Assembly: GCA_021513695.1 (NCBI GenBank)
Contig: CP084166.1
Span: 480,001-544,000 of the forward strand
Source: Candidatus Heimdallarchaeum aukensis
GTDB lineage: Archaea; Asgardarchaeota; Heimdallarchaeia; Heimdallarchaeales; Heimdallarchaeaceae
DNA length: 64,000 nt
Direction of reading: 5' to 3'
The notes under the pieces are model-generated. The model was given only the letters and a program-made list of their open reading frames with translations, ran no database searches and had not been told where the DNA came from. Shown here one piece after another: positions 17,074-34,405 of this stretch. Both the position numbers and the translations under genes were made by a program. Positions within the stretch are counted from its first letter, which is position 1, and each line of letters begins with the position of its first letter.

Positions 17074-17661
17074 CTAATCAACCATAAGTTTGGGAAATTT
17101 TGAAAGTTCCATTAATTTCATGAATTTTTTTCCTTTCTTAAAAATAGTATCTATACATTCAATTATTATATCCAAAAGCTCTTCTACTTTTTCTTTTTTT
17201 ACAGGTTTTAGTCCATGAGCAAGTATTGATTCATTTCTCTCTTTTAAAAGGTCTTTCATTTTGTTGGATGAAGAAAACATTTTCCCAAGATCATCATTCA
17301 AATCGTCTAAAACTAGATAACAATCATATAATCCCAACTTTACTTTTGAACCATTACTTTTTCTTTCTTTGAAATAACTTATACGTTGAGAAGAAACTCC
17401 TAACTTTTCTAATTGCTCTAAGGATATGTCATGGGGAGGTAAATTGTAGGCACTCTTTAATCTATACTGTGCCATAAGTTCTACAGCTCTGTAGAGCCTA
17501 GCCATTGCATCATCAAACTTTTCTTCTTTTAATCGACGTTTTGCGTTATTTAATAAATCTGCAAGAAAATAAAGGTCTTTCTCTATTTTTTTATCACTTT
17601 TATGTAACAAGTCGCACAAAAATTCTTTATTAAAACTATATTCTTTGCCAAGCTGTTTCAT
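17074..17661 (-). pseudogene. Truncated duplicate of the csx1 3' half (C-terminal 195 aa, HEPN part)
   Basis: Its translation is identical to residues 215-409 of the 19770-20999 product. Its 5' end is the duplication junction at 17690/17691. Confidence 0.85.
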
Positions 17662-17679
17662 TTTATCAAAAGCTTCTTT

Positions 17680-18234: not shown

Positions 18235-18269
18235 TATGGAGATTAAAAATAAAAAAAAGGTGATAATAT

Positions 18270-19031: not shown

Positions 19032-19052
19032 ATAACTTATGGAGTGCAAAAG

Positions 19053-19517: not shown

Positions 19518-19769
19518 CTATAATTGAAAATTAAATAAAAAAATAACAAAACAAATTTATTGCAAAAATAATTTAAAATTCGCACAAATATTTGGATACT
19601 TCTTCTTTTTTAAATTCAAATTTTATCAAAAACTTGAAAAGAATGCTAAATAGTCTATTTTTTAAATAAATAGGAAACAAAAAAAGTTTAGACTAAGTGG
19701 TTAGTTTTTGAAGTATAAATGAGGAGAAATAGGAACTGTATAATTTAAAGAAGAATAAAAAAAATAGGA

Positions 19770-20999
19770 CTAATCAACCATAAGTTTGGGAAATTTTGAA
19801 AGTTCCATTAATTTCATGAATTTTTTTCCTTTCTTAAAAATAGTATCTATACATTCAATTATTATATCCAAAAGCTCTTCTACTTTTTCTTTTTTTACAG
19901 GTTTTAGTCCATGAGCAAGTATTGATTCATTTCTCTCTTTTAAAAGGTCTTTCATTTTGTTGGATGAAGAAAACATTTTCCCAAGATCATCATTCAAATC
20001 GTCTAAAACTAGATAACAATCATATAATCCCAACTTTACTTTTGAACCATTACTTTTTCTTTCTTTGAAATAACTTATACGTTGAGAAGAAACTCCTAAC
20101 TTTTCTAATTGCTCTAAGGATATGTCATGGGGAGGTAAATTGTAGGCACTCTTTAATCTATACTGTGCCATAAGTTCTACAGCTCTGTAGAGCCTAGCCA
20201 TTGCATCATCAAACTTTTCTTCTTTTAATCGACGTTTTGCGTTATTTAATAAATCTGCAAGAAAATAAAGGTCTTTCTCTATTTTTTTATCACTTTTATG
20301 TAACAAGTCGCACAAAAATTCTTTATTAAAACTATATTCTTTGCCAAGCTGTTTCATTTTATCAAAAGCTTCTTTATGGTTAAATCTATCCCATAAACTA
20401 AAAGAATCAATTAAATTGTAATAGTATTCTTTTGTTTTGTCTCCGTTTAATAATACTATTTCATCTAAATAATTTCGTGCAGCATTATATCGATAATTAT
20501 TGAAAGATTCTTTCATTCTCCTTAACAATAATTTGTCATATACTGAATAAAGACTTTGCTCGACAATTCTTTCAGTACCTGAAAGAACAACACCATCTTT
20601 TCTTCTGCCTGAAATCAAAGTTAGTTTTTTGTGAAAAAGTACTGCAGCGATAGCTGCACTCATAGTCATTGTTTTTGTTCCAGAAGTATAGTCAATTATT
20701 ATTTCAGAATTGGAATACTTGTATATCTCATTCTGAATTAGTTGAAAACAACTATCAAAATCATCAATAGAAGTAAATTGAATAAATTCGTAAGAAGACA
20801 ATTCCTTGTTATACTGTGATTTATGTTGCCTTTCTATCTCCTTTATTGTTTTACGACTGTCTTCAGAACCAAAAAAAACAATATGATCAGGTTTATAGTG
20901 TTCAATACAAACTAGCAGTCCATGAGCTAAACTCTCAATTTTCTTGTCAACGTCCTCCCCTATTGCAGTTCCTACAGTCATAAAAAGAATACGTTTCAT
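19770..20999 (-). CDS. csx1: CARF-HEPN ancillary CRISPR ribonuclease (Csx1 / Cas02710-like)
   Basis: The N-terminal Rossmann-like CARF domain shows ILFMTVGTA and IIIDYTSGTKTMTMSAA. The C-terminal HEPN domain shows the R-x6-H motif ERNESILAHG. It lies immediately downstream of cmr6 on the same strand. Confidence 0.8.
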   Translation of the reverse strand: MKRILFMTVGTAIGEDVDKKIESLAHGLLVCIEHYKPDHIVFFGSEDSRKTIKEIERQHKSQYNKELSSYEFIQFTSIDDFDSCFQLIQNEIYKYSNSEIIIDYTSGTKTMTMSAAIAAVLFHKKLTLISGRRKDGVVLSGTERIVEQSLYSVYDKLLLRRMKESFNNYRYNAARNYLDEIVLLNGDKTKEYYYNLIDSFSLWDRFNHKEAFDKMKQLGKEYSFNKEFLCDLLHKSDKKIEKDLYFLADLLNNAKRRLKEEKFDDAMARLYRAVELMAQYRLKSAYNLPPHDISLEQLEKLGVSSQRISYFKERKSNGSKVKLGLYDCYLVLDDLNDDLGKMFSSSNKMKDLLKERNESILAHGLKPVKKEKVEELLDIIIECIDTIFKKGKKFMKLMELSKFPKLMVD

Positions 21000-21111
21000 G
21001 GTAAACCACTAACTAACTTTTAAAATAATTAAATCAAAATTTTTAAGCGTTACTAAAAACAAATATGTAAATAAAGCAATTACAAGGTAAAAATCCGTCA
21101 TCTTACTCAAC

Positions 21112-21930
21112 TTAAATTACTTTGAAACGGCCATAACCTAATGCAGTTTTTGCACCTAGTCCATGAATTTTCAATATGCCTGGCAGTAAGCTATTAATAA
21201 AATTCAAGTCTTCATCCATTTCAGTATAGTTTCTCTTTGGTAATAGCACAATTTGAAACTCTTGTTCAACATCAACAGCAAGAAACGGAATAGGAATAGG
21301 CTTCATCCAATCTCCTGGTGCTTCTTTTTCCAAATAATATTGTGAATAATGAGGAGTAATAATTTCTCCTTTTAATCTTGGAAATTTAGTTGGTAACATG
21401 TCTAAAAATATCATAGAACCAACTTCATTTGAGAGAGTTTTTTGATTTTCTTCTTTTGATAAAGAACCAAAAATTCTCTTTATTTGTTTTTTTTCGTTAT
21501 CGTCGTCCATTAGATCTATTATATAATCACGGATAGCACCTTTCAACGAGCTACCAGGTAGAAAAGGAACACCTAATGTATAGTGCCACAGAAAACCCAC
21601 TTCAATTGGATGTGGAAGACCAACACCTGTAATAAATGGAGTCAAAGTTCTAACATAAATAATTCTTCCATTTCGCTGTTCAGACAACAATAGTCTATGC
21701 TCAATGCATCTCTTAAGTAAAAAATTTTCATGTTTTACTTCATTATCAGTAAGTTTAGTAAAATGTTCAATCCATTTTTTCTTTCCCTCACTTATATATT
21801 CGATGTAATTATTTTTTTTCCACTTGTCAAAAAATTTTGAGTAGACTAAACCCTTGTTTGCACATTTATAGTTTTCATAGAAAAAGTTTTGTTCATTAAA
21901 CTTATGTCCTTTATAGATTACATTAGTCAG
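21112..21930 (-). CDS. cmr6: Cmr6 (type III-B RAMP subunit); start uncertain (CTG 21930-21928 or an indel-corrected ATG 21937-21935)
   Basis: PFLPGSSLKGAIRDY and the C-terminal glycine loop GLGAKTALGYGRF are present. The frame stays open for 81 codons upstream of the called TTG. That extension contains Cmr6-like N-terminal sequence (NKGLVYSKFFDKW) but no in-frame ATG/GTG/TTG. Confidence 0.8.
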   Translation of the reverse strand: MTNVIYKGHKFNEQNFFYENYKCANKGLVYSKFFDKWKKNNYIEYISEGKKKWIEHFTKLTDNEVKHENFLLKRCIEHRLLLSEQRNGRIIYVRTLTPFITGVGLPHPIEVGFLWHYTLGVPFLPGSSLKGAIRDYIIDLMDDDNEKKQIKRIFGSLSKEENQKTLSNEVGSMIFLDMLPTKFPRLKGEIITPHYSQYYLEKEAPGDWMKPIPIPFLAVDVEQEFQIVLLPKRNYTEMDEDLNFINSLLPGILKIHGLGAKTALGYGRFKVI

Positions 21931-22325
21931 TTTTCATTCACCTCAACCTTGGCTTGAGCTAGTTTTTTTAGCCATCCAAGGAACTCTAAAGTTTCTATCT
22001 GTGCAAGAATATACTCATCTTGTGTTGCATTTGTAATGTTATAAATTAAATCATTAGAATCTGTAAAAATATTCACCTTTTTTAACCATGTTTCTATAAT
22101 ATCAACAATTTTTTTATGGGCCTTTTTATCGCCATTATCGGGTTTAGGAGTTGCACTTGCTAGTTCCATTGCAATGGCTTGTCCAAGACCATTCATTACA
22201 ATTGTAGCTGGTAAACTTTTCACATAACTTAAAAAGCTTGAATTGTTTATTTCGTCATCATCAATTACTTCATTTATTGATGCTAAAGCAAATTTAGCCC
22301 TATCGTTATCTGATAAAAACTCCAG
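21927..22325 (-). CDS. cmr5: Cmr5 (small alpha-helical subunit); start uncertain (CTG 22325-22323)
   Basis: LPATIVMNGLGQAIAMELA matches the Cmr5 P-x-M-I-x-x-NGL-x-Q core. The frame is open for 35 codons upstream of the called GTG and encodes DRAKFALASINEV, which is typical of Cmr5 N-termini. Confidence 0.75.
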   Translation of the reverse strand: MEFLSDNDRAKFALASINEVIDDDEINNSSFLSYVKSLPATIVMNGLGQAIAMELASATPKPDNGDKKAHKKIVDIIETWLKKVNIFTDSNDLIYNITNATQDEYILAQIETLEFLGWLKKLAQAKVEVNEN

Positions 22326-22327
22326 AT

Positions 22328-23227
22328 TTATTCACCTCCTTTATCTGCATCAATTTTATCTATATGATGAATGATTTTTTCTGCATAATCCAGTTTTACA
22401 TGAAACCAACCTTGACCAACAGTTTCATTTCCTCCGATCTGGAGAAAACAACTATTAGTTAATAAATTGTCCAAAAAATCAATTCCATCTTCCTCAGAAA
22501 AAACTAAGCAATACATTAGAGTATCAGAGGAAATGTACTCTTCGTACCACAAATTTCTGCTTGACTTTGTCTCTGAATTTAATATATTCCTTGCTCGTAT
22601 TTCTAACCCAAAATTTGCGAACCATTTAAAATCATCATTATGAAGTATAACAAGCTGGTCTTTTAGTCTGTTCCTTACATCATCATCGGGTATCATAGCT
22701 GATAATAAATTAGCCAAATTGTCTATACCTTCACTTTCTTCTTTTTCAAATTGCCGTTCTTCAAGAAAAATATATTGTTCATTCACACAAGATAGAGTTT
22801 TTCCTCTTGTCACTTCGGGAATTGTAAATGAATATTTTATTCCTAAGCGTTTTAGGTCTCTTTTCAGTCTTTCTAATATATATGGACAAGTAATCCATCT
22901 ATAATTCGTCAATAAACTTCGTACTGGTAGCAATAGTAAGCGTGCATCAGAAATTAATAATTTTCCAGCAGAATCAGAACTTCCAAAGTACTTATCAACC
23001 TTTTTATTTGTTATATTAGAATTAACACCAACATTCTCATTAGCTAAACCACGCAGTGAGCCTTTTAAACTAGTGCTTGGTATGAAAGGATAACTTGTAA
23101 TTGTTTCACGAGCTACGGGACAATCTACTATTGATGTAGGATGTCCAGTTCCTGTATGAACAAATGTTTCAGCCAACATTTTCATTATTTTCCCTTTTAA
23201 ATTCGACTTCTTTTCATTTTGTTCCAT
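22328..23227 (-). CDS. cmr4: Cmr4 (backbone RAMP, target-RNA cleaving subunit)
   Basis: Motifs seen: FVHTGTGHPTSIVDCPVARE, IPSTSLKGSLRG, and C-terminal IGGNETVGQGWF. ATG 23227 is preceded by GAGGTGA with a 5-nt spacer and follows the cmr3 stop. Confidence 0.85.
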   Translation of the reverse strand: MEQNEKKSNLKGKIMKMLAETFVHTGTGHPTSIVDCPVARETITSYPFIPSTSLKGSLRGLANENVGVNSNITNKKVDKYFGSSDSAGKLLISDARLLLLPVRSLLTNYRWITCPYILERLKRDLKRLGIKYSFTIPEVTRGKTLSCVNEQYIFLEERQFEKEESEGIDNLANLLSAMIPDDDVRNRLKDQLVILHNDDFKWFANFGLEIRARNILNSETKSSRNLWYEEYISSDTLMYCLVFSEEDGIDFLDNLLTNSCFLQIGGNETVGQGWFHVKLDYAEKIIHHIDKIDADKGGE

Positions 23228-23228
23228 A

Positions 23229-24371
23229 TTAATCACCTCTTTCCCATTTTCCAAAAAGAAATTGTCCAAATCCAAATTCAGTTAATTTACCTATTTTATT
23301 GGAAACCAATCTTTTTAATGAAGATGTATTTTTTTCATCAAAAAAGAATGTAGACCCTGGAGGAATAAAAGGTCTGACTTCTAGAGGTTCTTTTTTTACT
23401 GCATTCCATCCTCCAATGCGAAGAATATCACCAATGTTAGCACCTATAACCTCAGAACCAAACTTTTTTGACAAAAATGTCATAACTTCATCTAGAGAAT
23501 CTCCTAAATATGCAGGAGTAATAAATGTAATTGTAAAATTATCAGAAACTGTTGAAATAGGGGGTATTTTATCAATTACTGGGAATTCTATTTCCTTGTA
23601 ACTAATATTAGCTATCTTTCCTTCTCCACCTATACGGTTACACCAATTTTCAATTGAGTCAAGTAAATCAATACCATTGACTTTCATACAAAGTACAATA
23701 TTTTCTAACCTTATCATTTGACGCGAAAATAAATTTCCAGTAACTGCAGTATTGGTTGTAGGATCTATTTCAATACCAATCTCATTTTCTTTTTGCCATA
23801 ATTTATTCTCAGAGAGAAAACGAACATTTTTAAGACTTTCAGAAGAAAAGGACAATAATCTTTCTAGATCATCAAATTTAACATAATAATTTTGTAATGT
23901 TTTATAACCATAATTACCACTTCTTCTTGGAAGTAAAATACTCTTTCTATCATGTTTGTCTTTACTTATACTTGACAAATACTTTTGTTTAGAAGGAATT
24001 AAATAATCCAGATCTACAATCTCTTCGTTTTTTTGAGAGGAAATGTGTCCAATTATATGTAAAGGAACAGGAAATAAAGGATGAAATTGATTATCCTCTT
24101 TTAATAATAAGTAAGGACCAAAAAAGTCTAAAGGCCCAAGATCGGTACCATCACCCAATTTACTAATTATATTTTCATCCCATTTACTGCTTCCATCCCA
24201 TCCATAATATCGAGCTAGTAAGGATCTTATTAGTCCAGTAATTGAAAATGGAGATGGTGGAAAAACACTTTTAACAAAATCTGACGAACTATCACTTTTA
24301 TAGAAAGAATAGTTTCCTCTAAAAAACAACCTATCTAAAGGTTCAATTATGAAACACTGTTCCTTAGCCAT
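23229..24371 (-). CDS. cmr3: Cmr3
   Basis: N-terminal FIIEPLDRLFFRG and C-terminal EFGFGQFLFGKW are present. It sits between cas10 and cmr4. An alternative ATG exists at 24389. Confidence 0.8.
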   Translation of the reverse strand: MAKEQCFIIEPLDRLFFRGNYSFYKSDSSSDFVKSVFPPSPFSITGLIRSLLARYYGWDGSSKWDENIISKLGDGTDLGPLDFFGPYLLLKEDNQFHPLFPVPLHIIGHISSQKNEEIVDLDYLIPSKQKYLSSISKDKHDRKSILLPRRSGNYGYKTLQNYYVKFDDLERLLSFSSESLKNVRFLSENKLWQKENEIGIEIDPTTNTAVTGNLFSRQMIRLENIVLCMKVNGIDLLDSIENWCNRIGGEGKIANISYKEIEFPVIDKIPPISTVSDNFTITFITPAYLGDSLDEVMTFLSKKFGSEVIGANIGDILRIGGWNAVKKEPLEVRPFIPPGSTFFFDEKNTSSLKRLVSNKIGKLTEFGFGQFLFGKWERGD

Positions 24372-26373
24372 TTTTATTACCAACCCCATGTTGATAAAGA
24401 AATTTTATAATATCAAGAAAACTTATAAAAAACTCATTTTCAGAGCTTTCAGGTATATACTCATTATTCTCATCTAATACTCTATATGACCGCTTCATTA
24501 GTTTAATCAATAAGCAAATAGTGGAATCTAATTTTTCGTTATTTAATTTTCTGTTTTCATGAGTAACAAATTCAGATTTTAATACTGTACTCAAATCTTT
24601 TCCAAAATCAGATATCTTTACAACATTTAGAGATTTACTTATTTCTTTATTTTCGTTTAATTTTCTAAAGACATTTCTAATTCTATACAATGCTCCTATC
24701 GAAAGATCGACATTAGAATCATAAAATAATTCAGAAATAAATTTCTCAAAATCATATCCATTTTTCTCAATAGAAGAAATAACGTCAAAAGTTGTTACAT
24801 ATTGATATTCTTTAGTTCCTCCTTTTAATAATGAAATTGCAATACTAGATCGACCATTATAATCTTTTGCAACTTCATCCAAAAGATAATGAGCTTTTTT
24901 CAAGACATCTTGTAAAGGATCATTAAAATGAGCGAAAACAATTCCTGCGGACATTGTTGCTTTTTTAGCATGCTTATCCATTTCTTCAACAAATCTATTA
25001 TTAATTGAAATTGCACATGAAATAACTTTATTTATTGGAACAAAAGCTAGAACATCGTCACCTCCAGCGTAAACAAGTACTCCATTATAATTTCTTACAA
25101 TTTCTTCTACTTCAATTGCAAATTTGGCAAGAATCTTACTAACTTTTTTTATAGCTTCTTTTTCTCCTTTTTCTTTCAATTTTTTGATAACATCACCTAT
25201 TTTATCACCATCCATTATCAGAACAGAGTAATAAGGTGATGGTATTATTTCACACTTATCGTAAATATTATCAACAAGATTTTTAGAAAGTTTTTTTCGA
25301 TATTCTTCGTATTCGGATGGAAACATAATTTTATTCTCATTTTTTAATAAGTCAGTATAATAAAGTTGAGCATCTAACTGAAAGAAAGGTTTGATTGCCT
25401 TTGCATCTTCTGATGCTCCTTCTTTATTGAAATTAAAATCAAACCATTGAGTAACATTAGGTCTTTTCAAATGTGATAAATCTTTGACTTTTTTAGCAAA
25501 ACTAATCAAAGATTTTCTCAATTCTAAATCTGTAGCAGCTTTTTCTTCTAACATGAACAACCAAGGTAAAGCTGCAATATAAACCGTTGAGGGCCAGTTT
25601 AGTATAGTTTTGCTTTTTAGAATTTCTTCTGAACATAAAGGAAACAATCGTTTTATTAATGCAATAGAAGAAAGCCTTTCATCATCTTTTAGTACGTATT
25701 TTAAAATATTTTTTCTAACTCGTTCCCAAAATGCATCTTGCTTATCTTTTTCACTTGTACTTTTTCCTCTGATAAAACCCGATAATTCTTGCCAATTTCC
25801 CATCATTTTACAACGATCACCCTTCTCAACAGGGAAAGAAAAAGGTGACCAAAGTTTAAAGTTAGAGAAATATTTTATTTCTTCTTCATTTTCTACTATT
25901 AACCATCGTATATTCCAAAAATTACTAGTTTGTCTAGCCCAAATCTTCTTTACTTCTGGATATTGTTTTTCTAGACTTGAAAAATATCTATCCCAAATCG
26001 TATCACAAATCCTCAACCATTCATTTCTAACAACAATTTCTGCTTTTTTAGCTAATTGAAAAGGATCTTTGCTTTTAGTTTTTATCACAGCTTGGTTTGG
26101 AATTGAACCTACTTTTGGGACTCCTTCAAGACCTTTGGTTTCATTCTTATCTGATTTTTCTTTTAAAGCATTTATAAAGGAATAAAATTCATTTCCATCT
26201 AGATTAGGCGATTCTATTGTTCCTCCAGAAATCATAAATTCATGCAATGCAACCCCAGTTAAGTAAGAAAGCAAATAAGAACCTACCCATAAATCTTGAG
26301 TCTTTCTAGCTTGTGCAATAAAAGACTGAACTGGGCCTATGGAAAAAATAATTGTAGTCTCATTAGTATCCAT
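24364..26373 (-). CDS. cas10: Cas10/Cmr2, short form without a recognisable N-terminal HD domain; GGDD cyclase motif intact
   Basis: The protein starts directly with FSIGPVQSFIAQARKTQDLWVGSYLLS. Palm motifs LIMDGDKIG and VYAGGDDVLAFVP are present. Length is 669 aa. Confidence 0.9.
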   Translation of the reverse strand: MDTNETTIIFSIGPVQSFIAQARKTQDLWVGSYLLSYLTGVALHEFMISGGTIESPNLDGNEFYSFINALKEKSDKNETKGLEGVPKVGSIPNQAVIKTKSKDPFQLAKKAEIVVRNEWLRICDTIWDRYFSSLEKQYPEVKKIWARQTSNFWNIRWLIVENEEEIKYFSNFKLWSPFSFPVEKGDRCKMMGNWQELSGFIRGKSTSEKDKQDAFWERVRKNILKYVLKDDERLSSIALIKRLFPLCSEEILKSKTILNWPSTVYIAALPWLFMLEEKAATDLELRKSLISFAKKVKDLSHLKRPNVTQWFDFNFNKEGASEDAKAIKPFFQLDAQLYYTDLLKNENKIMFPSEYEEYRKKLSKNLVDNIYDKCEIIPSPYYSVLIMDGDKIGDVIKKLKEKGEKEAIKKVSKILAKFAIEVEEIVRNYNGVLVYAGGDDVLAFVPINKVISCAISINNRFVEEMDKHAKKATMSAGIVFAHFNDPLQDVLKKAHYLLDEVAKDYNGRSSIAISLLKGGTKEYQYVTTFDVISSIEKNGYDFEKFISELFYDSNVDLSIGALYRIRNVFRKLNENKEISKSLNVVKISDFGKDLSTVLKSEFVTHENRKLNNEKLDSTICLLIKLMKRSYRVLDENNEYIPESSENEFFISFLDIIKFLYQHGVGNKNG

Positions 26374-27569
26374 TATATCTCCTCTTTACAATCAAATCTA
26401 TCAAAAAATGAATCTAAAAACGACCAATTTACTGCTAAAGGGACTTCTGTTGAATTTACTATTTTTTTTACTGTTCTATTACGAATTCTGTGTTGTTTTG
26501 TTGCTATAATTTTGAGTTTATTGTTCTGTAAAAATTTGGATTTTAATATCAAACCTATTGCAGCATAATGCTGTTGAACTTTAATGATTTTTATGAAAAG
26601 CGGGCTTGCTCTTCTAGTTGCACTATTTGAAAATGGTGATATCATTACACTTGTTTTATTGCTCTGAAAATAATAATTATGAGGTAAGCCAAAAATAATA
26701 CGTTCAGGATGCTCTTCAATTTTATTTTTATTAGTAAAATCAAGCATTAGATCATGATCTCTCTTAAAGTTTCTCTCAGCTCTTATTCCTCCTGGTAGTT
26801 CTCCACTATCCCCATAACTTCTATATTTTAATAACTCAAATCCAATAGAATTTAACAATTTATTAACATCACTGTCAATTTTTAATAAACAAGCCCTAGA
26901 ATACCTTGAAAAACGGGAATACAGTAAATCATTAATTTGTATCTGGTCTTCTTCTTTAAATTCAGCAAGAAAGTTCTCAATATTAATTTTTAAATCTTTT
27001 ACATTCTTTGATTGGATATATTCTAGCTCATCACCATTTTTTATCTCTTCAATATGAAATGATCCTAACCCTCGTCTAGATCTTGCGCCTATACCTCCAA
27101 AATAACTGAGAGCTATTAGAGCTTTAATAATAGAATTTTTAATGGATTTTTTACATTTTTTATTCAAATTTCTAAAGTAGATATTTATTTTTCCATTAAC
27201 AGGTGGTAAAACATATTCCTTAATATCATCTTTATGTTTTTTAATACCATATGTTAAATAACTTAATCCATATTCATTTTTTCCATATCCTTTAAAATGA
27301 CCCTTTTTGAAGTAATCTACCTCTGCATTTAATATCACCTTAGATTTACCAACGGACTTATCTGTGCTACTGAAAATCATAGTTTCATTACGATATAATT
27401 CATCTATAGTTTTTAGCTTAAAGTATTTCCAAGCTATCGCTCGCCACCAGAATCTTAAAGCCCCTTTAAAACTAGAAAGTCTAAATTCTGCTTTAGACTG
27501 ATCATAGCCGCGTAAAAATAGAGGAGTAACTATTTCAAACTTAACTGAAATATGTTCATACTCTTTCAC
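26373..27569 (-). CDS. cmr1: Cmr1 (double RAMP)
   Basis: Motifs seen: IVTPLFLRG, FRLSSFKGALRFWWRA, and the glycine loop YFGGIGARSRRGLGSF. It is the first gene of the operon. Confidence 0.85.
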   Translation of the reverse strand: MKEYEHISVKFEIVTPLFLRGYDQSKAEFRLSSFKGALRFWWRAIAWKYFKLKTIDELYRNETMIFSSTDKSVGKSKVILNAEVDYFKKGHFKGYGKNEYGLSYLTYGIKKHKDDIKEYVLPPVNGKINIYFRNLNKKCKKSIKNSIIKALIALSYFGGIGARSRRGLGSFHIEEIKNGDELEYIQSKNVKDLKINIENFLAEFKEEDQIQINDLLYSRFSRYSRACLLKIDSDVNKLLNSIGFELLKYRSYGDSGELPGGIRAERNFKRDHDLMLDFTNKNKIEEHPERIIFGLPHNYYFQSNKTSVMISPFSNSATRRASPLFIKIIKVQQHYAAIGLILKSKFLQNNKLKIIATKQHRIRNRTVKKIVNSTEVPLAVNWSFLDSFFDRFDCKEEI

Positions 27570-27836
27570 AATTATGACACCGTCAGCAATACAATTATTA
27601 TTTTATCTATTGTTTTTTATTTATAAGTTTAGTCTAATATTTTAAACAAAGTGTAATTTTAAATTTAAAATTTAAAAAAGCAATTATTTATTTATGATAG
27701 TCCTCATTACGTTTTATTTTTAGTAAAAATAGTTGTTTTAGTTAATCTTTTTTAAATGTAAAAGATAAATACTAATTTTTTCTATTAAATGGTTTAAATA
27801 CTTTTTTAAAGAAAGTATTACCTAATACATATAATT

Positions 27837-28391
27837 ATGTGTGAGCTAGTATATGTAACATTAGCTGGTTCTTCTAAAAAAGCTATTGTAAACTCAATAT
27901 ATTTTACAGTAAAAGAATTTATTAAAAAAAATATTAAATCAGTTGAAAAATTGTCAATTTTGATAATAAAATCAAATACAAGTCCAATAAAAAAAGAGTC
28001 TATAAAAACTTCTATAACAGAATATTTTAGTCTATCAAAAGAATTATCGGATATCAAAATTGAATTTTTCGAAGAAAAAGTAGTTCCAGAGCATATGTTA
28101 ATAGATATTTTTAAAGAGATTCAAAATGAACTTGTTCCTTTTTTAGACAATAATCAAAATAAGCTAATTATTGTAGATTTGACCGCATCAAGAAAAATAA
28201 TGTCGATAGGTCTCACTCTAAGTATTATTGAGTATTGGAAAAAGAAAAAAAACAACAATGTTTTTGTGTCCTATTACTTACTTAAGAAATTTTACGACAA
28301 TAAAGAGAAAATAACTATAGAATTATTTCCTGATGAATTCTCCGTTGAAATATGGTCTATCAAAGATTTAGAGGTGATCTTTAGTGAATGA
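27837..28391 (+). CDS. Small Rossmann-like protein, possible stand-alone CARF-type sensor domain
   Basis: VYVTLAGSS and LIIVDLTASRKIMSIGLTLS parallel the csx1 CARF motifs (FMTVGTA; IDYTSGTKTMTMSAA). It is divergent from cmr1. Its 3' end overlaps the next gene's GTG by 8 nt. Confidence 0.4.
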   Translation: MCELVYVTLAGSSKKAIVNSIYFTVKEFIKKNIKSVEKLSILIIKSNTSPIKKESIKTSITEYFSLSKELSDIKIEFFEEKVVPEHMLIDIFKEIQNELVPFLDNNQNKLIIVDLTASRKIMSIGLTLSIIEYWKKKKNNNVFVSYYLLKKFYDNKEKITIELFPDEFSVEIWSIKDLEVIFSE

Positions 28392-28980
28392 TAAAGAAAC
28401 AGAACTATATTTTGCTCAGTTTTTTGAAAAATTTCTAAAAAACAAAGAAATTATCATTAAAGGTTACAATGAAAGCAAAAATAGTGAATTTGAAATATCT
28501 TTCTCTGAACCGAAATTAATTTTCACTGGTGGTTTGCTCAATAGTACCATTCGAGATCTACTCTTTAATATAGCTATAGACAAAAATCAATTTGCTAAAA
28601 ACTATGAAGAACTAATTAGTGCAATTAATGAGGAATATATCATCGCAAAAAAGGATAATCGAATTCTAGCTTTGGGTATTGATACCAATATAATCTATTC
28701 AGGAGTTCTACTTACTGGATTATACAAACGTTTAATGAAAAAATTAGACTGGAAATTCCCTTTAATTGTAATCTCACATACCACTTCAGAAGAAATTCAC
28801 TATAAACGAGCTTCTAAATATAAAAATCCAACTTTAAATCAATTTAAAGCTAATATTCAGAAACAATCTGAAAATATTCAAAGTTTATTAAATAAAGTAT
28901 TTGCTGAAGAAGGAATGAATATTTCAGAAAGTGTTTATAGAAATCTACTTGATAGAGATGGTAGATTAGGCCATCTCTAG
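28384..28980 (+). CDS. Hypothetical protein with a PIN-like nuclease core (tentative), possibly disrupted at the 3' end
   Basis: GAGGTGAT lies 5 nt before GTG 28384. LALGIDTNIIY gives a PIN-like first acidic motif and ISHTTSEEI a second. A further 46-codon ORF in another frame (28992-29132) follows the stop. Confidence 0.35.
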   Translation: MNDKETELYFAQFFEKFLKNKEIIIKGYNESKNSEFEISFSEPKLIFTGGLLNSTIRDLLFNIAIDKNQFAKNYEELISAINEEYIIAKKDNRILALGIDTNIIYSGVLLTGLYKRLMKKLDWKFPLIVISHTTSEEIHYKRASKYKNPTLNQFKANIQKQSENIQSLLNKVFAEEGMNISESVYRNLLDRDGRLGHL

Positions 28981-29200
28981 GAGTATACAAATTGCTCTTA
29001 CATCGCATTAAAATGAATACAATTGTAATAAAATCAATTCACCCTTATTACTCTGGAAAGTTTTCCAATAATGGAAATGTTCCTAGAGAAATTGGTGCAA
29101 TATATGATTCTTTAGTTTGCATTAATTCATAACTCTAGAAGAAGGATTTTTGAACAAGATTAAATTAAAAAAAAAAAAGGATATAGAGAAAGTTGAGTTG

Positions 29201-30718
29201 TTACCAAATGAAGTCTACTATTAAGTTTCCAAGTGTCCAAGTAGATGGTAAAATACCAACTGATGCCAGAGCACACCATGCATCATACGCAAATCCAATA
29301 CCATACACAGGTTCTAAAGCATCACCAATACCAGCATCAATAACATTTGCAACAATAGTTTTCATTTCACTTGTAGAAATAGTACCGTCGTCAACAAGAG
29401 CGATTGCAACAGAAATAACACCTGTAGCAAGCATAGATATACATGGTGAAAAATAACTCGTTTTAAGAGCGTTTTTTAGGATATTTCTTATTTCTTCTTC
29501 AGTTATAGTGTCAGTAGGGGATACCTTAAACAAGTTTCCAATTAATTCATAGGTAGCATCTTTTATGTGTGCACCTGTGCTCCCTATTATTTTATCAGTG
29601 AAGTCTCTTAATGCTTTTGCCATTTTTCCTGCGGTTTCTGTGGAATGAGAAAGATAATAACTATTACAGTATCCCTTAATGTCTTCAATGACTTTTAGAG
29701 TATTATCTACAAGTTGATAACTATTCAATGAAGCTTTGATATCAGAGGTATCTGATGTTCTATCGCTAGCGAATGCCATTATAAATTCCCTGATTTCTCC
29801 AGAACCATCACCCCAACTAAATACATCTTTTGCTAGTATTTTCCATTTAAGGGGTCTGTGGGCGTAAGAAGGATTGTTTACTGATATCGTGAATTCAAGA
29901 GTTTTTTCTCCAGGATCTGGATTGGAAGAGCTATGTCTGTCCCATAATTGTGCTATATACACATTTTCATTATTAACAGCATCGTAGTAACCCAAATACA
30001 CATCAAGTTGAGTCCAGTCTGAGTATGATATCCTTGTCTTTACATATATATAATCAACATATACATTATCTGGTACGTAATAGTTATATATTGAAGCATA
30101 AGCCATAAAGGGATCGTCTAATTCTACTTCATTGTGATAAGTACTATCGAAGTAATAAGCATCTCTTGATACTGCTACAGAACCTTCACCCCCCTCACCG
30201 CCATATGGACTGTTTGTTTCATACTGACTATTTCCGCCTATTCCAGTTGTAATCGCGATAGACCAATAATCGATATATCCTTTATCACCGCTAGCACAAT
30301 CTTCTACGCGTAATTTCCATGTACCATAACAGTTGAATCCTTTAAAATAACTTGTAATAACGAAATCCTGATGGATGTCATCTGAGCTACCACCTTCTCT
30401 GTCCCAAATTTGATAAGTTAACCCACTAGGACTGACAACCCATATTTTTAGGTCTCCAATCCATGTATGAATAATGCTCACGTAAACTGAAACAGTATCT
30501 ATAGAATCAGATTTTGAGATATATATATAGCTTTCTGTTGTAGAATGATCATAGATATTATAGTTTGATCCATTGGACCCCTGTGTACCTGCAGCACTTG
30601 TAGCGCTAGTTGGCATTATGAATGTATTTTGAGGAATCACTGTTACTATCATTAATGCTAATATAGACAGACTTATTAAGTAGATTTTTGATTTAGATTT
30701 TAATTTCATGTTATCCAT
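29201..30718 (-). CDS. Secreted or membrane-anchored protein with two proprotein-convertase-type P domains and no protease domain
   Basis: The N-terminal signal/anchor is KIYLISLSILALMIVTVIP. The P-domain consensus is IIHTWIGDLKIWVVSPSG...GTWKLRVEDCASGDKGYIDYWSIAI. A second, weaker copy runs WTQLDVYLGY...WKILAKDVFSWGDGSGEIREF. Confidence 0.7.
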   Translation of the reverse strand: MDNMKLKSKSKIYLISLSILALMIVTVIPQNTFIMPTSATSAAGTQGSNGSNYNIYDHSTTESYIYISKSDSIDTVSVYVSIIHTWIGDLKIWVVSPSGLTYQIWDREGGSSDDIHQDFVITSYFKGFNCYGTWKLRVEDCASGDKGYIDYWSIAITTGIGGNSQYETNSPYGGEGGEGSVAVSRDAYYFDSTYHNEVELDDPFMAYASIYNYYVPDNVYVDYIYVKTRISYSDWTQLDVYLGYYDAVNNENVYIAQLWDRHSSSNPDPGEKTLEFTISVNNPSYAHRPLKWKILAKDVFSWGDGSGEIREFIMAFASDRTSDTSDIKASLNSYQLVDNTLKVIEDIKGYCNSYYLSHSTETAGKMAKALRDFTDKIIGSTGAHIKDATYELIGNLFKVSPTDTITEEEIRNILKNALKTSYFSPCISMLATGVISVAIALVDDGTISTSEMKTIVANVIDAGIGDALEPVYGIGFAYDAWCALASVGILPSTWTLGNLIVDFIW

Positions 30719-30910
30719 TTCTTCTCACCTGTCGTAAGTAGAGGCATCCTCATACTCAAATGGGATGCCAATTTATATTTCACTACCGTTCTTTAAAAAT
30801 CAATTGTGCTTATAAGCAAAGCCTAATCTTGTTTTAATCACCATCAAGAACTTTTATGAATATAAAAAGAAGAAAGCTTTTTATTGTTGTTATCATATTA
30901 AAATTTATTA

Positions 30911-33541
30911 GTGAGGTTCACAGCAGCAAATAAAATATTATTGTCTCTTTTATTCAATGATTGTGTTCATATGTCTAATTCCCATCAATATAATGTTAGC
31001 TATTATGCTACACAGCGTGGAATAGCTGAAAGTACAGGTATTCCTCTGACAAATATCCCTAGAACCCTAAAAATGTTAATTAAAAAAGGATTTGTAGAAC
31101 AAAGTATGGGGTATACAAAAGATGCAATAAGAAGAAGAAAAGTGTATTTTCTCACAGAAATTGGAAAAAAAATGGCACAAAACCTTTACCATGAGCTATT
31201 AGAGCAAGAAATTACAATAATTAATAAACACGGTAAGAGTGAATTACATCCATTTAATGAAGTAGCGAAATTATATAATGTAGACGTTATAAAGATACTT
31301 AGAAATTTGGATTTGCAAGGAAATATTATGCTGGAAGAGCTTGTTCAAAATAACAATGAGGCTAATAAAGTTTATTTTCTTAATTATACACCAGAAGAGA
31401 ATTTTTTTTTCGGAAGAAAGGAAGAATTAGAAAAAATCAGAAGATTTATTGAACACGAACACAAAAAAGTTATAGCTGTATACGGTATTGCAGGTATAGG
31501 AAAGACCTCGTTGATATTAAAAATAATGCAGAATTATAGAAAGAATTACAATATTTTTTATTATAGATTACACGAGTGGGACAGCTTACGAAGTGTGTTA
31601 ACTTCATTATCTGACTTTTTAAGTAGGCTTGGAAAGAAAAGTTTGAGAAAATATTTGAATAATAACAGACCTTGCCTTGATGAAGTTCAAGCAATATTAA
31701 GAAAAGAATTAATGAACGTTAATTCTCTGTTGGTAATCGACGAAGTTCAAAACATTGCGAGCGATGAAATAGTTGATTTACTAAAATATCTTATAATAAT
31801 CTTTTGTGCTGAAATTGAGAATTCAATCCTTATTTTCGCCAGTAGAAAGAGGGTTAATTTCTACTCAATGAAACATACTCTAAAACGAAGCATCGGAGAA
31901 ATTGTTTTGAATGGGCTGGATAGGGAATCAAGTAATAAAATAATTGAGAAGAATATAAATATAAGAAACTTTGAGGAAATTTATAATATTACACAGGGAC
32001 ATCCCCTTGCTCTTAGATTCATAAGTAATTGCAATACGTTAAAGAAAGGAGAAAAAAACATCCTGAATTATGCATTCAATGAAATATATGACAATCTCTC
32101 ACCAAAAGAGAAAGAATTGTTATTTTTTCTCTATACATGTCGATATCCAGTGACAACTCAAATGCTTTTAGATAATAACTTTTCTTATGAAACTTTCCAA
32201 AGACTCTATAACAAAAGCTTTTGTTTTAAAACAGTTTTAGGTAATGTGCAACTACATTATATCCTTCGCAGCTTCCTTCACAAGCTTTTCTCACATAGTA
32301 TATCAGAAAACACGCAAATAGTAACTAACATAAAGATTGCAGAATATTATAGAAAAAATAAAACACCCTTGAACATTATTGCTGCTATATATCATTATTT
32401 TCATGCAAAAGAACACGAACAAGCTATAAAGCTAGCGATTCAATATGAGGATCTAATTATCGAAAATGGTTATTCTCAAGAGTTGATAGATATTTTAGAA
32501 ACGTTTGAAAAAGATATTATTTTAAAAGAAGATTGGAAGAGTATACTACAACTCAAAGGTAACGCGTATAATGCAATAGGAAAAATAAATTATGCGTTAA
32601 ATTTATACTTACAAGTCTTGGAATTATGCAAGAATACAGAAAAACCAGAAATAGAGCTTTTATTGGAAATAGGAAAATTGTATTTGAAAAAAAACGCATT
32701 TGATATTGCTTTAGATAAATATATCGAATGTTTAAGAAATGCAAAAGAAAGTGATAATAAAGAGAACATTGCTTATAGTTACTATTATATAGGAAAAACC
32801 TACTGGAAAAAAGGAAATCTTAAAAAATCGATTAGATGTTTGAAGAAAGCTCTTAGGTTCAGTAATCAAACCAACAATCTACACCTTAAAGGAAAAATCT
32901 ACATGGATTTTGCGATGGTATATTCTCTCAGAGCAATGTGGCAACAAGCAATAAATAGTTCTCTTCTAAGTCTTGAATTATTAGAAAGAACAGGCAATTA
33001 CTATGAGATAAGTAAGGCGTATAATAATATTGGAGTAATCTATTCCTCTAGGGGAGATTATGAGAAAGCAATTTATTACTACGAAAAACAATTAAGATGT
33101 GCAGAGAAATACGACTTTATACGAACAAAAGTTTATGCTTTTTGTAATATTGCATGGGCAATTGCTAATAAAAATAATGTATCTAAACAAGAGTTAGAGA
33201 AAGCAATAGGTTTATGCTCACAAGCTTTTGATATCTCACGACATCTTAAGGATGATAGGATAACAGCAGGTCTCTACACAGCTTATGGTTGCTTATTTGC
33301 AAAAATGCAAAAGTGGGCAAAAGCTATCCATTACTTTAATCATGCAATCAACTACTTAGAAAAAGAGAAGGATATCCTTCTCCTTCCTCGAATATTTTTT
33401 TGGTTTGGAAAAATCTATAAAGAGAAAGGCGATATAGCCAATGCTAAGAAATATTTTAACAGAGCTTATAAATATTATAAAAGAAGAAAAAACCGAATAA
33501 GAATTAAAGAGATTGAAGTTGAATTAGAAACATGTGTTTAG
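30911..33541 (+). CDS. STAND ATPase: N-terminal winged HTH, NB-ARC-like NTPase, C-terminal TPR array
   Basis: The wHTH is QRGIAESTGIPLTNIPRTLKMLIKKGFVE. Walker A is YGIAGIGKTSL (from about nt 31484) and Walker B is LLVIDEVQ. A GxP motif (QGHPLAL) lies about 170 aa after the P-loop. The C-terminal ~400 aa have repeated TPR-like A/Y/G periodicity. Confidence 0.75.
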   Translation: MRFTAANKILLSLLFNDCVHMSNSHQYNVSYYATQRGIAESTGIPLTNIPRTLKMLIKKGFVEQSMGYTKDAIRRRKVYFLTEIGKKMAQNLYHELLEQEITIINKHGKSELHPFNEVAKLYNVDVIKILRNLDLQGNIMLEELVQNNNEANKVYFLNYTPEENFFFGRKEELEKIRRFIEHEHKKVIAVYGIAGIGKTSLILKIMQNYRKNYNIFYYRLHEWDSLRSVLTSLSDFLSRLGKKSLRKYLNNNRPCLDEVQAILRKELMNVNSLLVIDEVQNIASDEIVDLLKYLIIIFCAEIENSILIFASRKRVNFYSMKHTLKRSIGEIVLNGLDRESSNKIIEKNINIRNFEEIYNITQGHPLALRFISNCNTLKKGEKNILNYAFNEIYDNLSPKEKELLFFLYTCRYPVTTQMLLDNNFSYETFQRLYNKSFCFKTVLGNVQLHYILRSFLHKLFSHSISENTQIVTNIKIAEYYRKNKTPLNIIAAIYHYFHAKEHEQAIKLAIQYEDLIIENGYSQELIDILETFEKDIILKEDWKSILQLKGNAYNAIGKINYALNLYLQVLELCKNTEKPEIELLLEIGKLYLKKNAFDIALDKYIECLRNAKESDNKENIAYSYYYIGKTYWKKGNLKKSIRCLKKALRFSNQTNNLHLKGKIYMDFAMVYSLRAMWQQAINSSLLSLELLERTGNYYEISKAYNNIGVIYSSRGDYEKAIYYYEKQLRCAEKYDFIRTKVYAFCNIAWAIANKNNVSKQELEKAIGLCSQAFDISRHLKDDRITAGLYTAYGCLFAKMQKWAKAIHYFNHAINYLEKEKDILLLPRIFFWFGKIYKEKGDIANAKKYFNRAYKYYKRRKNRIRIKEIEVELETCV

Positions 33542-33562
33542 TTTAACTTTTGTAAGTTATTT

Positions 33563-33838
33563 ATGCAATTTTCATTGTTTACTTACACAAACAAGTTGAT
33601 ATTAACAAAAGATAAGCAATTATATTCTCTGTTAAAGAGGACTGGAATACGTAGCGAATATATGGAGCTACCTAAATCAAGAGAAATAGCCAATAAAATT
33701 AAAATAACATACAATCAGTTTTCATATCTTGCTCGAGAATTGTTAGTATTATCTCCTTATTTAATAATAGAAGTAGATAATAAATCAATAGTACTAACAA
33801 TGAATTGGTTTGGACATGAAAAAGAAAAAATGGTATAG
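33563..33838 (+). CDS. Hypothetical small protein
   Basis: This is a 91-aa ORF with no recognisable motif. Coding status is uncertain. Confidence 0.3.
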   Translation: MQFSLFTYTNKLILTKDKQLYSLLKRTGIRSEYMELPKSREIANKIKITYNQFSYLARELLVLSPYLIIEVDNKSIVLTMNWFGHEKEKMV

Positions 33839-33932
33839 AGGAGTAAAACGCTACAACAAAAATTGATGGTAAAGTTAGACATTTGTGTATTAAATGAAAT
33901 AAATATACTTATACAATATGAGCTATTGCGAT

Positions 33933-34301: not shown

Positions 34302-34405
34302 AAGCTAAATTATTACTTAAAATATAAAAACATTTTTTCTTTTTTTCTTTAATTATTCTTAAAAATTTTTATTTTGAATTTCAAATTATTTTTTCAATTT
34401 GAATA

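What the first reader, a model, noticed from the sequence alone, without database searches (positions are those of the whole stretch)
19770..27569. Complete type III-B effector operon plus csx1, with no CRISPR array, cas6 or adaptation genes in the window
Seen: cmr1-cas10-cmr3-cmr4-cmr5-cmr6-csx1 lie on the minus strand with abutting or overlapping stops and starts. I found no spaced direct repeats in any intergenic region of the 64 kb, and no cas6, cas1 or cas2. Established: Cmr complexes need Cas6-processed crRNAs. Inference: the module depends on arrays and Cas6 encoded elsewhere in trans, or it is an orphan.
Basis: partly seen in the sequence, partly recalled or inferred. Interest (0 to 1): 0.5.

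Follow-up and report, generated by a model that had tools for sequence, protein, structure and literature searches.

The report
Array-less Cmr operon in Heimdallarchaeum
This is an intact type III-B CRISPR interference operon with no CRISPR array of its own, sitting on a variable island of the Asgard archaeon Ca. Heimdallarchaeum aukensis; the genome paper already reports one array-free operon, and such operons are common, so it is ordinary.

Summary
cmr1-cas10-cmr3-cmr4-cmr5-cmr6 plus a CARF-HEPN Csm6/Csx1-family gene lie on the minus strand at 19770-27569. The 64 kb window has no CRISPR array, cas6, cas1 or cas2.

The window comes from the circular genome of Ca. Heimdallarchaeum aukensis. 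Its genome paper (Wu et al. 2022, PMC8813620) reports "one array-free operon (C7)" alongside complete CRISPR-Cas operons with arrays. At least one of those, C2 with 92 spacers, is in this genome.

The operon sits on a 16.3 kb island between BCCP and accC. The island is absent from H. endolithica. A related Pescadero lineage has it on one contig that spans the whole island, again with no array.

The core genes are intact:
- Catalytic motifs are present: Cas10 GGDD, the Cmr4 Asp, and the Csm6 R..H.
- dN/dS is 0.09-0.41 against that relative.
- Cas10 has no HD domain.

The best reading is a working interference and cOA-signalling module that uses crRNAs made in trans. I could not fetch this genome's arrays or cas6, so trans use rests on the paper.

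Side findings:
- cmr5 and cmr6 have CTG starts.
- A second, decaying CARF/PIN-like accessory pair lies next to cmr1.
- A 2.7 kb tandem duplication creates a truncated csm6 copy.

Already known; low interest.

The parts
26373..27569 (-). cmr1 (398 aa, GTG start; GenBank UJG41238.1)
   Evidence: TIGR01894 E=1e-19. PADLOC Cmr1 E=2e-27. dN/dS 0.41 against L003. Its 3' half lies in a divergence hot spot.
24364..26373 (-). cas10/cmr2 (669 aa), without an HD domain, with an intact cyclase palm
   Evidence: TIGR02577 E=4e-58. Pfam Cmr2_N at residues 8-123 and palm2 at 381-512. Residue 7 aligns to residue ~249 of a 1004-aa HD-bearing Cas10. 'MDGDKIG' and 'GGDDVLAF' are conserved. GenBank UJG41237.1.
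23229..24389 (-). cmr3 (386 aa)
   Evidence: TIGR01888 E=8e-33 and PF09700 E=5e-56, both full length. dN/dS 0.23.
22328..23227 (-). cmr4 (299 aa from the ATG at 23227, as in GenBank UJG41235.1; the longest ORF starts at TTG 23275)
   Evidence: TIGR02580 E=2e-52. 'SIVDCPVARE' aligns with 'GVVDQPIQRE' in the top PDB Cmr4 chains (4w8w, 4rdp). This keeps the Asp I take to be the RNA-cleaving D26 of P. furiosus Cmr4 (the residue number and species are from my own knowledge).
21927..22325 (-). cmr5 (132 aa from CTG 22325; the GTG at 22223 gives a truncated 98 aa)
   Evidence: The 132-aa form matches PADLOC Cmr5 models end to end (E=2e-28). The 98-aa form lacks model positions 1-30. The 30-codon extension has 7 synonymous and 2 non-synonymous changes against L003, where the GTG is not conserved. 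GenBank UJG42175.1 starts at this CTG. GGAGGTGA lies 6 nt upstream.
21112..21930 (-). cmr6 (272 aa from CTG 21930, which overlaps the cmr5 stop as CTGA; the TTG at 21690 gives 192 aa)
   Evidence: The frame is open for 80 codons upstream of the TTG with no ATG, GTG or TTG. PADLOC Cmr6 models need these N-terminal residues (PDLC01452 covers 45-271). The frame is conserved in L003. The Guaymas relative RLG10349.1 is annotated as 271 aa from the CTG. GAGGTGA lies 7 nt upstream.
19770..20999 (-). Csm6/Csx1-family CARF-6H-HEPN effector (TIGR02710, 409 aa; GenBank UJG41233.1)
   Evidence: TIGR02710 E=1e-62. Pfam Csm6_6H and Csm6 HEPN. 'DYTSGTKTM' and 'RNESILAHG' align with 'DLTSGTKAM' and 'RNSALLVHG' of solved Csm6 chains (8jh1 shown, 5fsh also hit). 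99% identical to the JGI relative.
27837..28391 (+). second, small CARF-like gene (184 aa), transcribed divergently from cmr1
   Evidence: PADLOC CARF_TM E=3e-5, CARF_m1 E=5e-4, several Csx1 models. Card1 is the best PDB sequence hit, E=0.12. A low-confidence model (pLDDT 54) has the cA4-bound protein Cdn1 as its highest-probability fold match (prob 0.99, TM 0.45). The gene is fragmented in L003 and L021.
28384..29120 (+). N-terminal part of a disrupted PIN-like gene (the 198-aa ORF 28384-28980, then a frameshifted stretch)
   Evidence: Homologues are 359-389 aa and the ORF matches only their first ~200 residues. An intact 359-aa allele, P0310, exists in a JGI contig. A model of P0310 (pLDDT 63) best matches cA4-bound SiRe_0806 (prob 0.98-0.99) and then PIN proteins (VapC, Rrp44), all with low TM scores.
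33506..33838 (+). C-terminal part of the same PIN-like gene (the 91-aa ORF 33563-33838)
   Evidence: tblastn of P0288 and P0289 residues 234-342 hits 33506-33832 (E=1e-13 to 1e-14). The gene is contiguous in L003.
29131..33541 (.). 4.4 kb insertion inside the PIN-like gene: a P-domain protein (29201-30718, minus) and a STAND NTPase with TPR repeats (30911-33541, plus)
   Evidence: Pfam P_proprotein; ATPase_2, NB-ARC, nSTAND1 and TPR. Absent from L003, where window 29130 and 33542 are adjacent. Present in a second JGI haplotype, L021.
19572..35868 (.). the 16.3 kb variable island that carries the operon, between the convergent BCCP (stop 19517) and accC (stop 35862) genes
   Evidence: Homology to H. 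endolithica CP084167.1 stops at 19571 and resumes at 35869. There accC and BCCP are 64 nt apart. The island also holds an MNT-type nucleotidyltransferase (33933-34301) and DDE transposase fragments (34532-35229).
17074..17661 (-). truncated second copy of csm6 (HEPN half only, 195 aa; GenBank UJG41229.1), created by the tandem duplication 14992-17687 / 17688-20388
   Evidence: Pfam Csm6 HEPN E=1e-37. Self-BLAST: 2.7 kb repeat at 99.9% identity. Short-read contigs of the same strain end within ~30 nt of both repeat borders. The junction is not found in JGI metagenomes.

Best explanation
This is a functional type III-B (Cmr) interference module with a cyclic-oligoadenylate (cOA) signalling arm. 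It sits on a 16.3 kb variable defence island of Ca. Heimdallarchaeum aukensis. It is most likely the 'array-free operon C7' of Wu et al. 2022.

Shown here:
- All six Cmr subunits and a CARF-6H-HEPN Csm6-family RNase are present.
- The Cas10 cyclase motif, the Cmr4 catalytic Asp and the HEPN R..H are intact.
- Cas10 has no HD nuclease domain.
- The genes are under purifying selection.
- The island has no array, cas6, cas1 or cas2, either here or in a sister lineage.

Inferred mechanism:
- crRNAs come from CRISPR arrays elsewhere on the chromosome and are cut by a Cas6 belonging to another CRISPR-Cas locus.
- These crRNAs load into Cmr1-6.
- Binding of a complementary transcript triggers RNA cleavage by Cmr4 and cOA synthesis by Cas10.
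- cOA activates Csm6, which degrades RNA non-specifically.
- With no HD domain, there is no Cas10 DNase arm.
- New spacers are acquired only through the other loci.
For: Gene content and order.

Motifs:
- Cas10 'DGD' and 'GGDD', with an N-terminus that begins where HD-bearing Cas10 proteins are at residue ~249.
- The Cmr4 Asp that aligns with the solved Cmr4 chains 4w8w and 4rdp, which I take to be D26 of P. furiosus Cmr4.
- Csm6 CARF 'TSGTK' and HEPN 'RN....H'.

Selection against the JGI relative L003:
- dN/dS is 0.41 for cmr1, 0.34 for cas10, 0.23 for cmr3, 0.35 for cmr4 and 0.09 for cmr5.
- csm6 is 99.8% identical.

Context:
- L003 spans the whole island from accC to BCCP and has no array or cas6/1/2, so the array-free state predates the split of the two lineages and has been kept.
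- Source organism.
- The paper states that the two Heimdallarchaeum genomes hold five complete CRISPR-Cas operons, one array-free operon and one orphan array, and that C2 is in H. aukensis. I derive its 92 spacers from the source data.
- The nearest more distant relative (Cas10 36% identical, L019) is also a cmr1-6 plus CARF-effector module with no cas6 or array on a 13.9 kb contig.

Established knowledge: Cmr complexes of Pyrococcus furiosus and Saccharolobus use crRNAs from arrays and a Cas6 encoded elsewhere. Type III-B loci often lack cas1, cas2 and cas6.
Against: - I did not see the arrays or cas6 of this genome. The single genome-collection scan, run with the Cas1 of a related MAG, returned no Heimdallarchaeum locus. 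The Cas6 search returned only the query itself.
- That this locus equals 'C7' is inferred. It is the only stated array-free operon and this locus is array-free, but the figure naming the operons is not held as text.
- Repeat compatibility is untested.
- cmr5 and cmr6 lack ATG, GTG or TTG starts, so their expression depends on CTG (or ATA) initiation, which has not been shown.
- The neighbouring CARF and PIN-like accessory genes are decaying, which shows that part of the island is not maintained.
Confidence: 0.72

Rival explanations
1. Orphan remnant. The operon was stranded without array and Cas6 after transfer or deletion, is no longer used for immunity, and is on its way to decay.
For: - There is no array, cas6 or adaptation gene on the island in either lineage.
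- cmr5 and cmr6 have lost canonical start codons.
- The adjacent CARF and PIN-like genes are frameshifted or split by an insertion.
- IS fragments lie at the island edge.
- The island is absent from H. endolithica.
Against: - All seven core reading frames are open in the window, in the short-read contig L001 and in L003-L006.
- Catalytic residues are intact.
- dN/dS is 0.09-0.41, including in the non-canonically started N-terminus of Cmr5 (7 synonymous against 2 non-synonymous changes).
- The accessory genes next door did decay over the same period, so selection has evidently discriminated between them and the core.
Confidence: 0.13
2. A working Cmr complex whose guides are not made by a Cas6. 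Either a host ribonuclease processes the crRNAs, as RNase E does for Synechocystis subtype III-Bv, or non-CRISPR RNAs are used as guides.
For: - No cas6 lies on the island in two lineages.
- The module is far from its nearest relatives: Cas10 is 36% identical beyond the Heimdallarchaeaceae.
- I could not confirm a cas6 elsewhere in this genome.
Against: - The paper lists complete CRISPR-Cas operons in the same genome. A related Heimdallarchaeaceae MAG has a type III-A locus with cas6, cas1 and cas2. A Cas6 in trans is therefore the simpler assumption.
- Nothing in the sequence points to a different guide.
Confidence: 0.1
3. An ordinary complete locus whose array or cas6 lies just outside the window.
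For: The window covers only 64 kb of a 3.08 Mb chromosome.
Against: - The operon is 19.7 kb from the left end and 36.4 kb from the right end of the window.
- The island borders are defined by housekeeping genes shared with H. endolithica.
- The flanks are metabolic and cell-biology genes.
- Short-read contigs reaching 0.56 kb and 5.4 kb beyond the ends show no array or cas gene.
- The paper reports an array-free operon in these genomes, which this locus most likely is.
Confidence: 0.02

Closest known systems
'Array-free operon C7' of the Ca. Heimdallarchaeum genomes (Wu et al. 2022, Nat Microbiol, PMC8813620)
   Same: Same organism. It is a CRISPR-Cas operon with no array. The paper describes the CRISPR-Cas systems of these genomes as variable between the two species, which matches the island's absence from H. 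endolithica.
   Different: Nothing known to differ. The paper's text does not give the subtype or coordinates of C7, so the identity is by elimination. The paper does not discuss selection, motifs, start codons, the accessory genes or the duplication.
Cmr systems of Pyrococcus furiosus and Saccharolobus islandicus, which use crRNAs from arrays and a Cas6 encoded elsewhere (my own knowledge)
   Same: Six-subunit Cmr1-6 architecture. Cmr4 is 1.7e-36 to the solved Cmr4 chain 4w8w and keeps the aligned Asp. There is a CARF-family accessory RNase. The module depends on trans-encoded Cas6 and arrays.
   Different: Cas10 here lacks the N-terminal HD domain. At 669 aa it is about the size of the chain deposited as 'Cmr2dHD' (3ung, 693 aa), so no DNase arm is expected. 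The effector is a TIGR02710 Csm6-type protein rather than a Csx1-type one.
HD-less type III-B Cas10/Cmr2 proteins with solved structures (PDB 9arw, 612 aa; 9lq5, 600 aa)
   Same: Short Cas10 with Cmr2_N and palm domains only. Sequence hits at E=8.5e-27 and 8e-11.
   Different: These are distant in sequence. The signalling product and effectors of those systems were not compared here.
Cross-subtype crRNA sharing, for example Marinomonas mediterranea type III-B using type I-F crRNAs, and Cas6-independent processing by RNase E in Synechocystis III-Bv (my own knowledge)
   Same: Type III-B effector modules that rely on RNA-processing and array resources they do not encode.
   Different: No evidence here on which array, repeat or nuclease is used.
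Thermus thermophilus Csm6 (PDB 5fsh) / the TIGR02710 family
   Same: CARF, 6H and HEPN domain order. The CARF 'TSGTK' and HEPN 'RN....HG' motifs are conserved.
   Different: Only weak overall sequence similarity (E=2e-5). The activating cOA species is unknown.

Membership tests
Type III-B CRISPR-Cas (Cmr) effector module | Cas10 of the Cmr2 type, with Cmr2_N and palm/cyclase domains | tested here: met
   TIGR02577 197.5 bits against a cut-off of 79.4. PF12469 and PF22335 match. GGDD is present.
Type III-B CRISPR-Cas (Cmr) effector module | Cmr1, Cmr3, Cmr4, Cmr5 and Cmr6 all present in one operon | tested here: met
   Each scores above the NCBIfam equivalog cut-off. PADLOC assigns them to CAS-III-B/C models.
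Type III-B CRISPR-Cas (Cmr) effector module | Catalytic Asp of the Cmr4 backbone subunit | tested here: met
   The Asp in 'SIVDCPVARE' aligns with the Asp in 'VVDQPIQRE' of 4w8w and 4rdp. Equating it with D26 of P. furiosus Cmr4 is from my own knowledge.
Type III-B CRISPR-Cas (Cmr) effector module | HD nuclease domain on Cas10 (typical but not universal) | tested here: not met
   The protein starts at the Cmr2_N domain. Residue 7 aligns to residue ~249 of the 1004-aa chain 9l7c_B and ~209 of 6s6b_K.
Type III-B CRISPR-Cas (Cmr) effector module | Loaded with Cas6-processed crRNA carrying an 8-nt repeat tag | not testable with these tools
   No arrays or cas6 of this genome could be fetched. This needs RNA data.
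Complete CRISPR-Cas locus (effector + array + cas6 + adaptation) | CRISPR array within the locus | tested here: not met
   The sister-lineage island L003 has none either.
Complete CRISPR-Cas locus (effector + array + cas6 + adaptation) | cas6, cas1 and cas2 within the locus | tested here: not met
   Pfam, NCBIfam and PADLOC on the called ORFs, plus tblastn, give no hit.
Csm6/Csx1 CARF-HEPN effectors (TIGR02710) | N-terminal CARF domain, 6H linker, and C-terminal HEPN domain with an R-X(4-6)-H motif | tested here: met
   TIGR02710 212 bits against a cut-off of 83.9. PF22205 and PF09670 match. 'RNESILAH' aligns with the R..H of solved Csm6 chains.
Degenerate / pseudogenised cas locus | Frameshifts, premature stops or lost catalytic residues in the core genes | tested here: not met
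   Frames are open in five independent assemblies. Motifs are intact. dN/dS is below 0.5. Only the start codons of cmr5 and cmr6 are non-canonical.
'C7 array-free operon' of Wu et al. 2022 | Lies in a Ca. Heimdallarchaeum circular genome and has cas genes without an array | tested here: met
   The proteins are UJG412xx of Ca. H. aukensis, on a 3,081,793-bp contig. No array was found. The label 'C7' itself is in a figure that is not held as text.

The most novel reading that the evidence does not exclude
The Cmr module has been kept through at least one lineage split with no array or Cas6 of its own because it does not depend on canonical Cas6-made crRNAs. It would be loaded with RNAs processed by a host nuclease, or with non-CRISPR transcripts. 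Two of its subunits (Cmr5, Cmr6) would be made only by CUG-initiated, termination-coupled translation that sets their stoichiometry.
Probability: 0.05. Interest if true: 0.75.

Novelty: already known. Interest (0 to 1): 0.15.

Why it matters
It matters little as a discovery. Array-less type III-B modules that borrow crRNAs are textbook, and the genome paper already reports one array-free operon in these genomes, which this locus most likely is.

It has modest value as a worked example in an Asgard archaeon:
- The island's borders, age and haplotypes are now defined.
- The core is shown to be under selection while its accessory CARF and PIN-like genes decay.
- Cas10 is shown to lack the HD domain, so immunity should rest on RNA cleavage and cOA signalling alone.

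It also flags annotation and assembly problems in the public record: short Cmr6, inconsistent Cmr5 starts, and duplicated segments.

Tried and rejected
1. Fetching the arrays and cas6 of H. aukensis failed.
- A Cas6 from a related Heimdallarchaeaceae type III-A locus (L008/L009) found only itself.
- The single genome-collection scan, run with that MAG's Cas1, returned only distant bacterial loci.

2. The paper's supplements did not help.
- The spacer tables are cut off.
- The mobilome FASTA has uninformative headers.
- A 2026 archaeal-immunity paper has no per-genome table held.

3. Co-occurrence of the III-B island and the III-A locus in one related MAG could not be shown. The accession ranges differ.

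4. A scan of viral contigs for Cas10 relatives found none.

5. The bacterial promoter and terminator scan gave no more sites than shuffled sequence and is the wrong model for an archaeon.

6. TGA recoding (codes 4 or 25) as an explanation for the missing starts was rejected. TGA is used as a stop codon, and recoding does not rescue cmr5.

7. A -1 frameshift fusion of Cmr4 and Cmr5 was rejected: there is no slippery site, and only a 3-nt window lies between the two stop codons.

8. The junction ORF of the 2.7 kb duplication is not on record, and the junction 29-mer is absent from JGI metagenomes. Whether the duplication is real stays open.

9. A profile of the PIN-like family found no convincing match among PDB sequences.

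Full report
**What is there.** The minus strand from 27569 to 19770 carries seven genes: cmr1, cas10/cmr2, cmr3, cmr4, cmr5, cmr6 and a CARF-6H-HEPN gene of the TIGR02710 (Csm6/Csx1) family.
- Each scores far above the curated NCBIfam cut-off.
- Pfam and PADLOC confirm the assignments.

**No array or adaptation genes.** Four independent approaches found no CRISPR array anywhere in the 64 kb:
- Tandem Repeats Finder at low stringency.
- Spaced direct-repeat searches.
- My own periodic k-mer and mismatch-tolerant scans.
- Rfam, including its CRISPR-DR families.

The largest intergenic gap is 632 nt. No cas6, cas1 or cas2 was found by Pfam on the non-overlapping ORFs of 60 aa or more that I called. 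PADLOC on the unannotated ORFs and tblastn with Heimdallarchaeaceae Cas6, Cas1 and Cas2 also found none.

**Where it comes from.** Exact look-ups place the proteins in the circular 3,081,793-bp genome of Ca. Heimdallarchaeum aukensis (Cas10 = UJG41237.1). This fits the Arf/Ras-family GTPases and the archaeal Nre protein in the flanks.

The genome paper (Wu et al. [quoted passage not shown]
- The paper places C2 in H. aukensis. Its source data imply 92 spacers for C2.
- The present locus is array-free, and the paper reports only one array-free operon. So this is very probably C7. That is inference, because the figure that labels the operons is not held as text.
- From the repeat counts (against "212 and 262"), H. 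aukensis may also hold the orphan array C4 and the two-array locus C6. This too is inference only.

**Island structure.** Comparison with H. endolithica CP084167.1 shows that homology stops at 19571 and resumes at 35869. In that genome the convergent accC and BCCP genes are 64 nt apart. The operon therefore lies on a 16.3 kb island.

A JGI Pescadero contig, L003 (11.3 kb), spans the whole island of a sister lineage from accC to BCCP. Its gene order is: MNT-like region, a PIN-like gene, a small CARF gene, cmr1-6, csm6. It has no array and no cas6, cas1 or cas2.

The H. aukensis island has two extra insertions:
- A 4.4 kb block (29131-33541) encoding a P-domain protein and a STAND/TPR NTPase. 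It splits the PIN-like gene into 28384-29120 and 33506-33838.
- About 1.3 kb of IS remnant.

A second Pescadero haplotype, L021, also carries both insertions.

**Is it alive?**
- Against L003, dN/dS is 0.41 (cmr1), 0.34 (cas10), 0.23 (cmr3), 0.35 (cmr4) and 0.09 (cmr5). csm6 is 99.8% identical.
- Cas10 keeps 'DGD' and 'GGDD'. It begins at the Cmr2_N domain, aligned to residue ~249 of an HD-bearing 1004-aa Cas10, so it has no HD nuclease.
- Cmr4 keeps the Asp that aligns with the solved Cmr4 chains 4w8w and 4rdp, which I take to be D26 of P. furiosus Cmr4.
- The Csm6-family protein keeps the CARF 'TSGTK' and HEPN 'RN....HG' motifs.
- By contrast, the neighbouring CARF and PIN-like genes are frameshifted or interrupted in every assembly except one JGI allele, P0310.

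Selection has therefore kept the core and let the accessories go. This argues against a decaying orphan.

**Start codons.** With ATG/GTG/TTG starts, cmr5 and cmr6 look N-terminally truncated (98 and 192 aa) and leave gaps of 104 and 236 nt.
- Both frames are open upstream.
- The extensions are needed to match the family models end to end.
- The cmr5 extension shows 7 synonymous against 2 non-synonymous changes, and its GTG is not conserved.
- Each frame has a CTG 6-7 nt after GAGGTGA. The cmr6 CTG overlaps the cmr5 stop as CTGA.
- GenBank already starts Cmr5 at this CTG (UJG42175.1) but gives a short Cmr6 (UJG41234.1, 191 aa). A Guaymas relative is annotated with a 271-aa Cmr6 from the CTG and a Cmr5 from the ATA.

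**Mechanism (inferred).**
- crRNAs are transcribed from arrays elsewhere and cut by the Cas6 of another locus.
- They load into Cmr1-6.
- Target transcripts are cut by Cmr4 and switch on cOA synthesis by Cas10.
- cOA activates the Csm6-family RNase.
- No DNase arm is expected.

This matches established knowledge for Cmr systems that share arrays and Cas6 with co-resident systems. The next-nearest relative (Cas10 36% identical) is likewise a cmr1-6 plus CARF-effector (Card1) module, with no array or cas6 on its 13.9 kb contig.

**What I could not do.** I could not retrieve the arrays or cas6 of this genome. Trans supply rests on the paper's text, and repeat compatibility is untested.

**Verdict.** The feature is already published and of a common kind, so interest is low. 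The incidental findings are listed separately.

Noticed in passing
window 14992-17687 and 17688-20388: A 2.7 kb tandem duplication at 99.9% identity, with 2-5 nt of microhomology at the junction. It duplicates the PPTase end of the megasynthase, a hydrolase, BCCP and the 3' half of csm6. This creates a truncated csm6 copy (17074-17661, annotated as UJG41229.1) and a BCCP copy frameshifted by one A in a homopolymer. Short-read contigs of the same strain stop within ~30 nt of both repeat borders, as expected if junction reads exist. The junction is not found in JGI metagenomes. The nanopore library was MDA-amplified, so an artefact is not excluded.
   Followed up: partly
window 5393-7385 and 7386-9378: An exact 1993-bp tandem duplication splits a giant megasynthase gene into ORFs of 1506 and 2653 aa. 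The short-read contig L002 carries a single copy and one continuous gene of more than 3344 aa. H. endolithica has one 3515-aa gene. This is probably an assembly artefact of the deposited genome.
   Followed up: partly
window 21927-22325 and 21112-21930 (minus strand): cmr5 and cmr6 have no ATG, GTG or TTG at their true N-termini. Both have a conserved GAGGTGA-N6/7-CTG context, and the cmr6 CTG overlaps the cmr5 stop (CTGA). Public annotations disagree with one another: CTG, ATA, or a short internal start.
   Followed up: yes
window 27837-28391, 28384-29120 and 33506-33838: A second accessory pair lies next to cmr1: a small CARF-like protein and a ~360-aa PIN-like protein. A model of the PIN-like protein best matches cA4-bound SiRe_0806 and then PIN nucleases. 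The models have low to moderate confidence. In this genome the PIN-like gene is split by a 4.4 kb insertion. In relatives both genes are frameshifted.
   Followed up: partly
window 29131-33541: The inserted cassette encodes a 505-aa protein with a proprotein-convertase P domain and an 876-aa STAND NTPase with TPR repeats. It may be a separate defence-type module nested in the CRISPR island. It is present in one Pescadero haplotype (L021) and absent from another (L003).
   Followed up: partly
window 25574-26766: A divergence hot spot covers the 3' half of cmr1 and the 5' third of cas10. Identity to the JGI relative is 67-88% there, against 95-99.8% over the rest of the operon and 99.8% in csm6. 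This suggests recombination with another allele or diversifying selection.
   Followed up: partly
window 542-19517 and 35862-37442: An Asgard archaeon carries a type I PKS/FAS-like megasynthase with enoyl reductase-like, KS, AT, 3 ACP, KR, DH and PPTase domains. It sits next to acyl-CoA carboxylase subunits (carboxyltransferase, BCCP, biotin carboxylase) and a biotin-protein ligase. The cluster is conserved in H. endolithica. It could bear on fatty-acid-type lipid synthesis in Asgard archaea.
   Followed up: no
window 53960-54523 and 59001-59561: Arf-family and Ras/Rab-family small GTPases, which are eukaryotic signature proteins typical of Asgard archaea.
   Followed up: no
window 37626-38453: Two EamA-transporter fragments (82 and 161 aa) lie in a 1.1 kb stretch that has no counterpart in H. 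endolithica. This is probably a pseudogene.
   Followed up: no
L008/L009 (NCBI MAGs GCA_054386755.1, GCA_054387515.1): Related Heimdallarchaeaceae MAGs carry a type III-A locus: HD-Cas10/Csm1, csm2-5, a TIGR02710 CARF protein 42% identical to the one here, cas6, a 303-aa gene, cas1 and cas2. The contig ends at cas2, where an array would be expected.
   Followed up: partly
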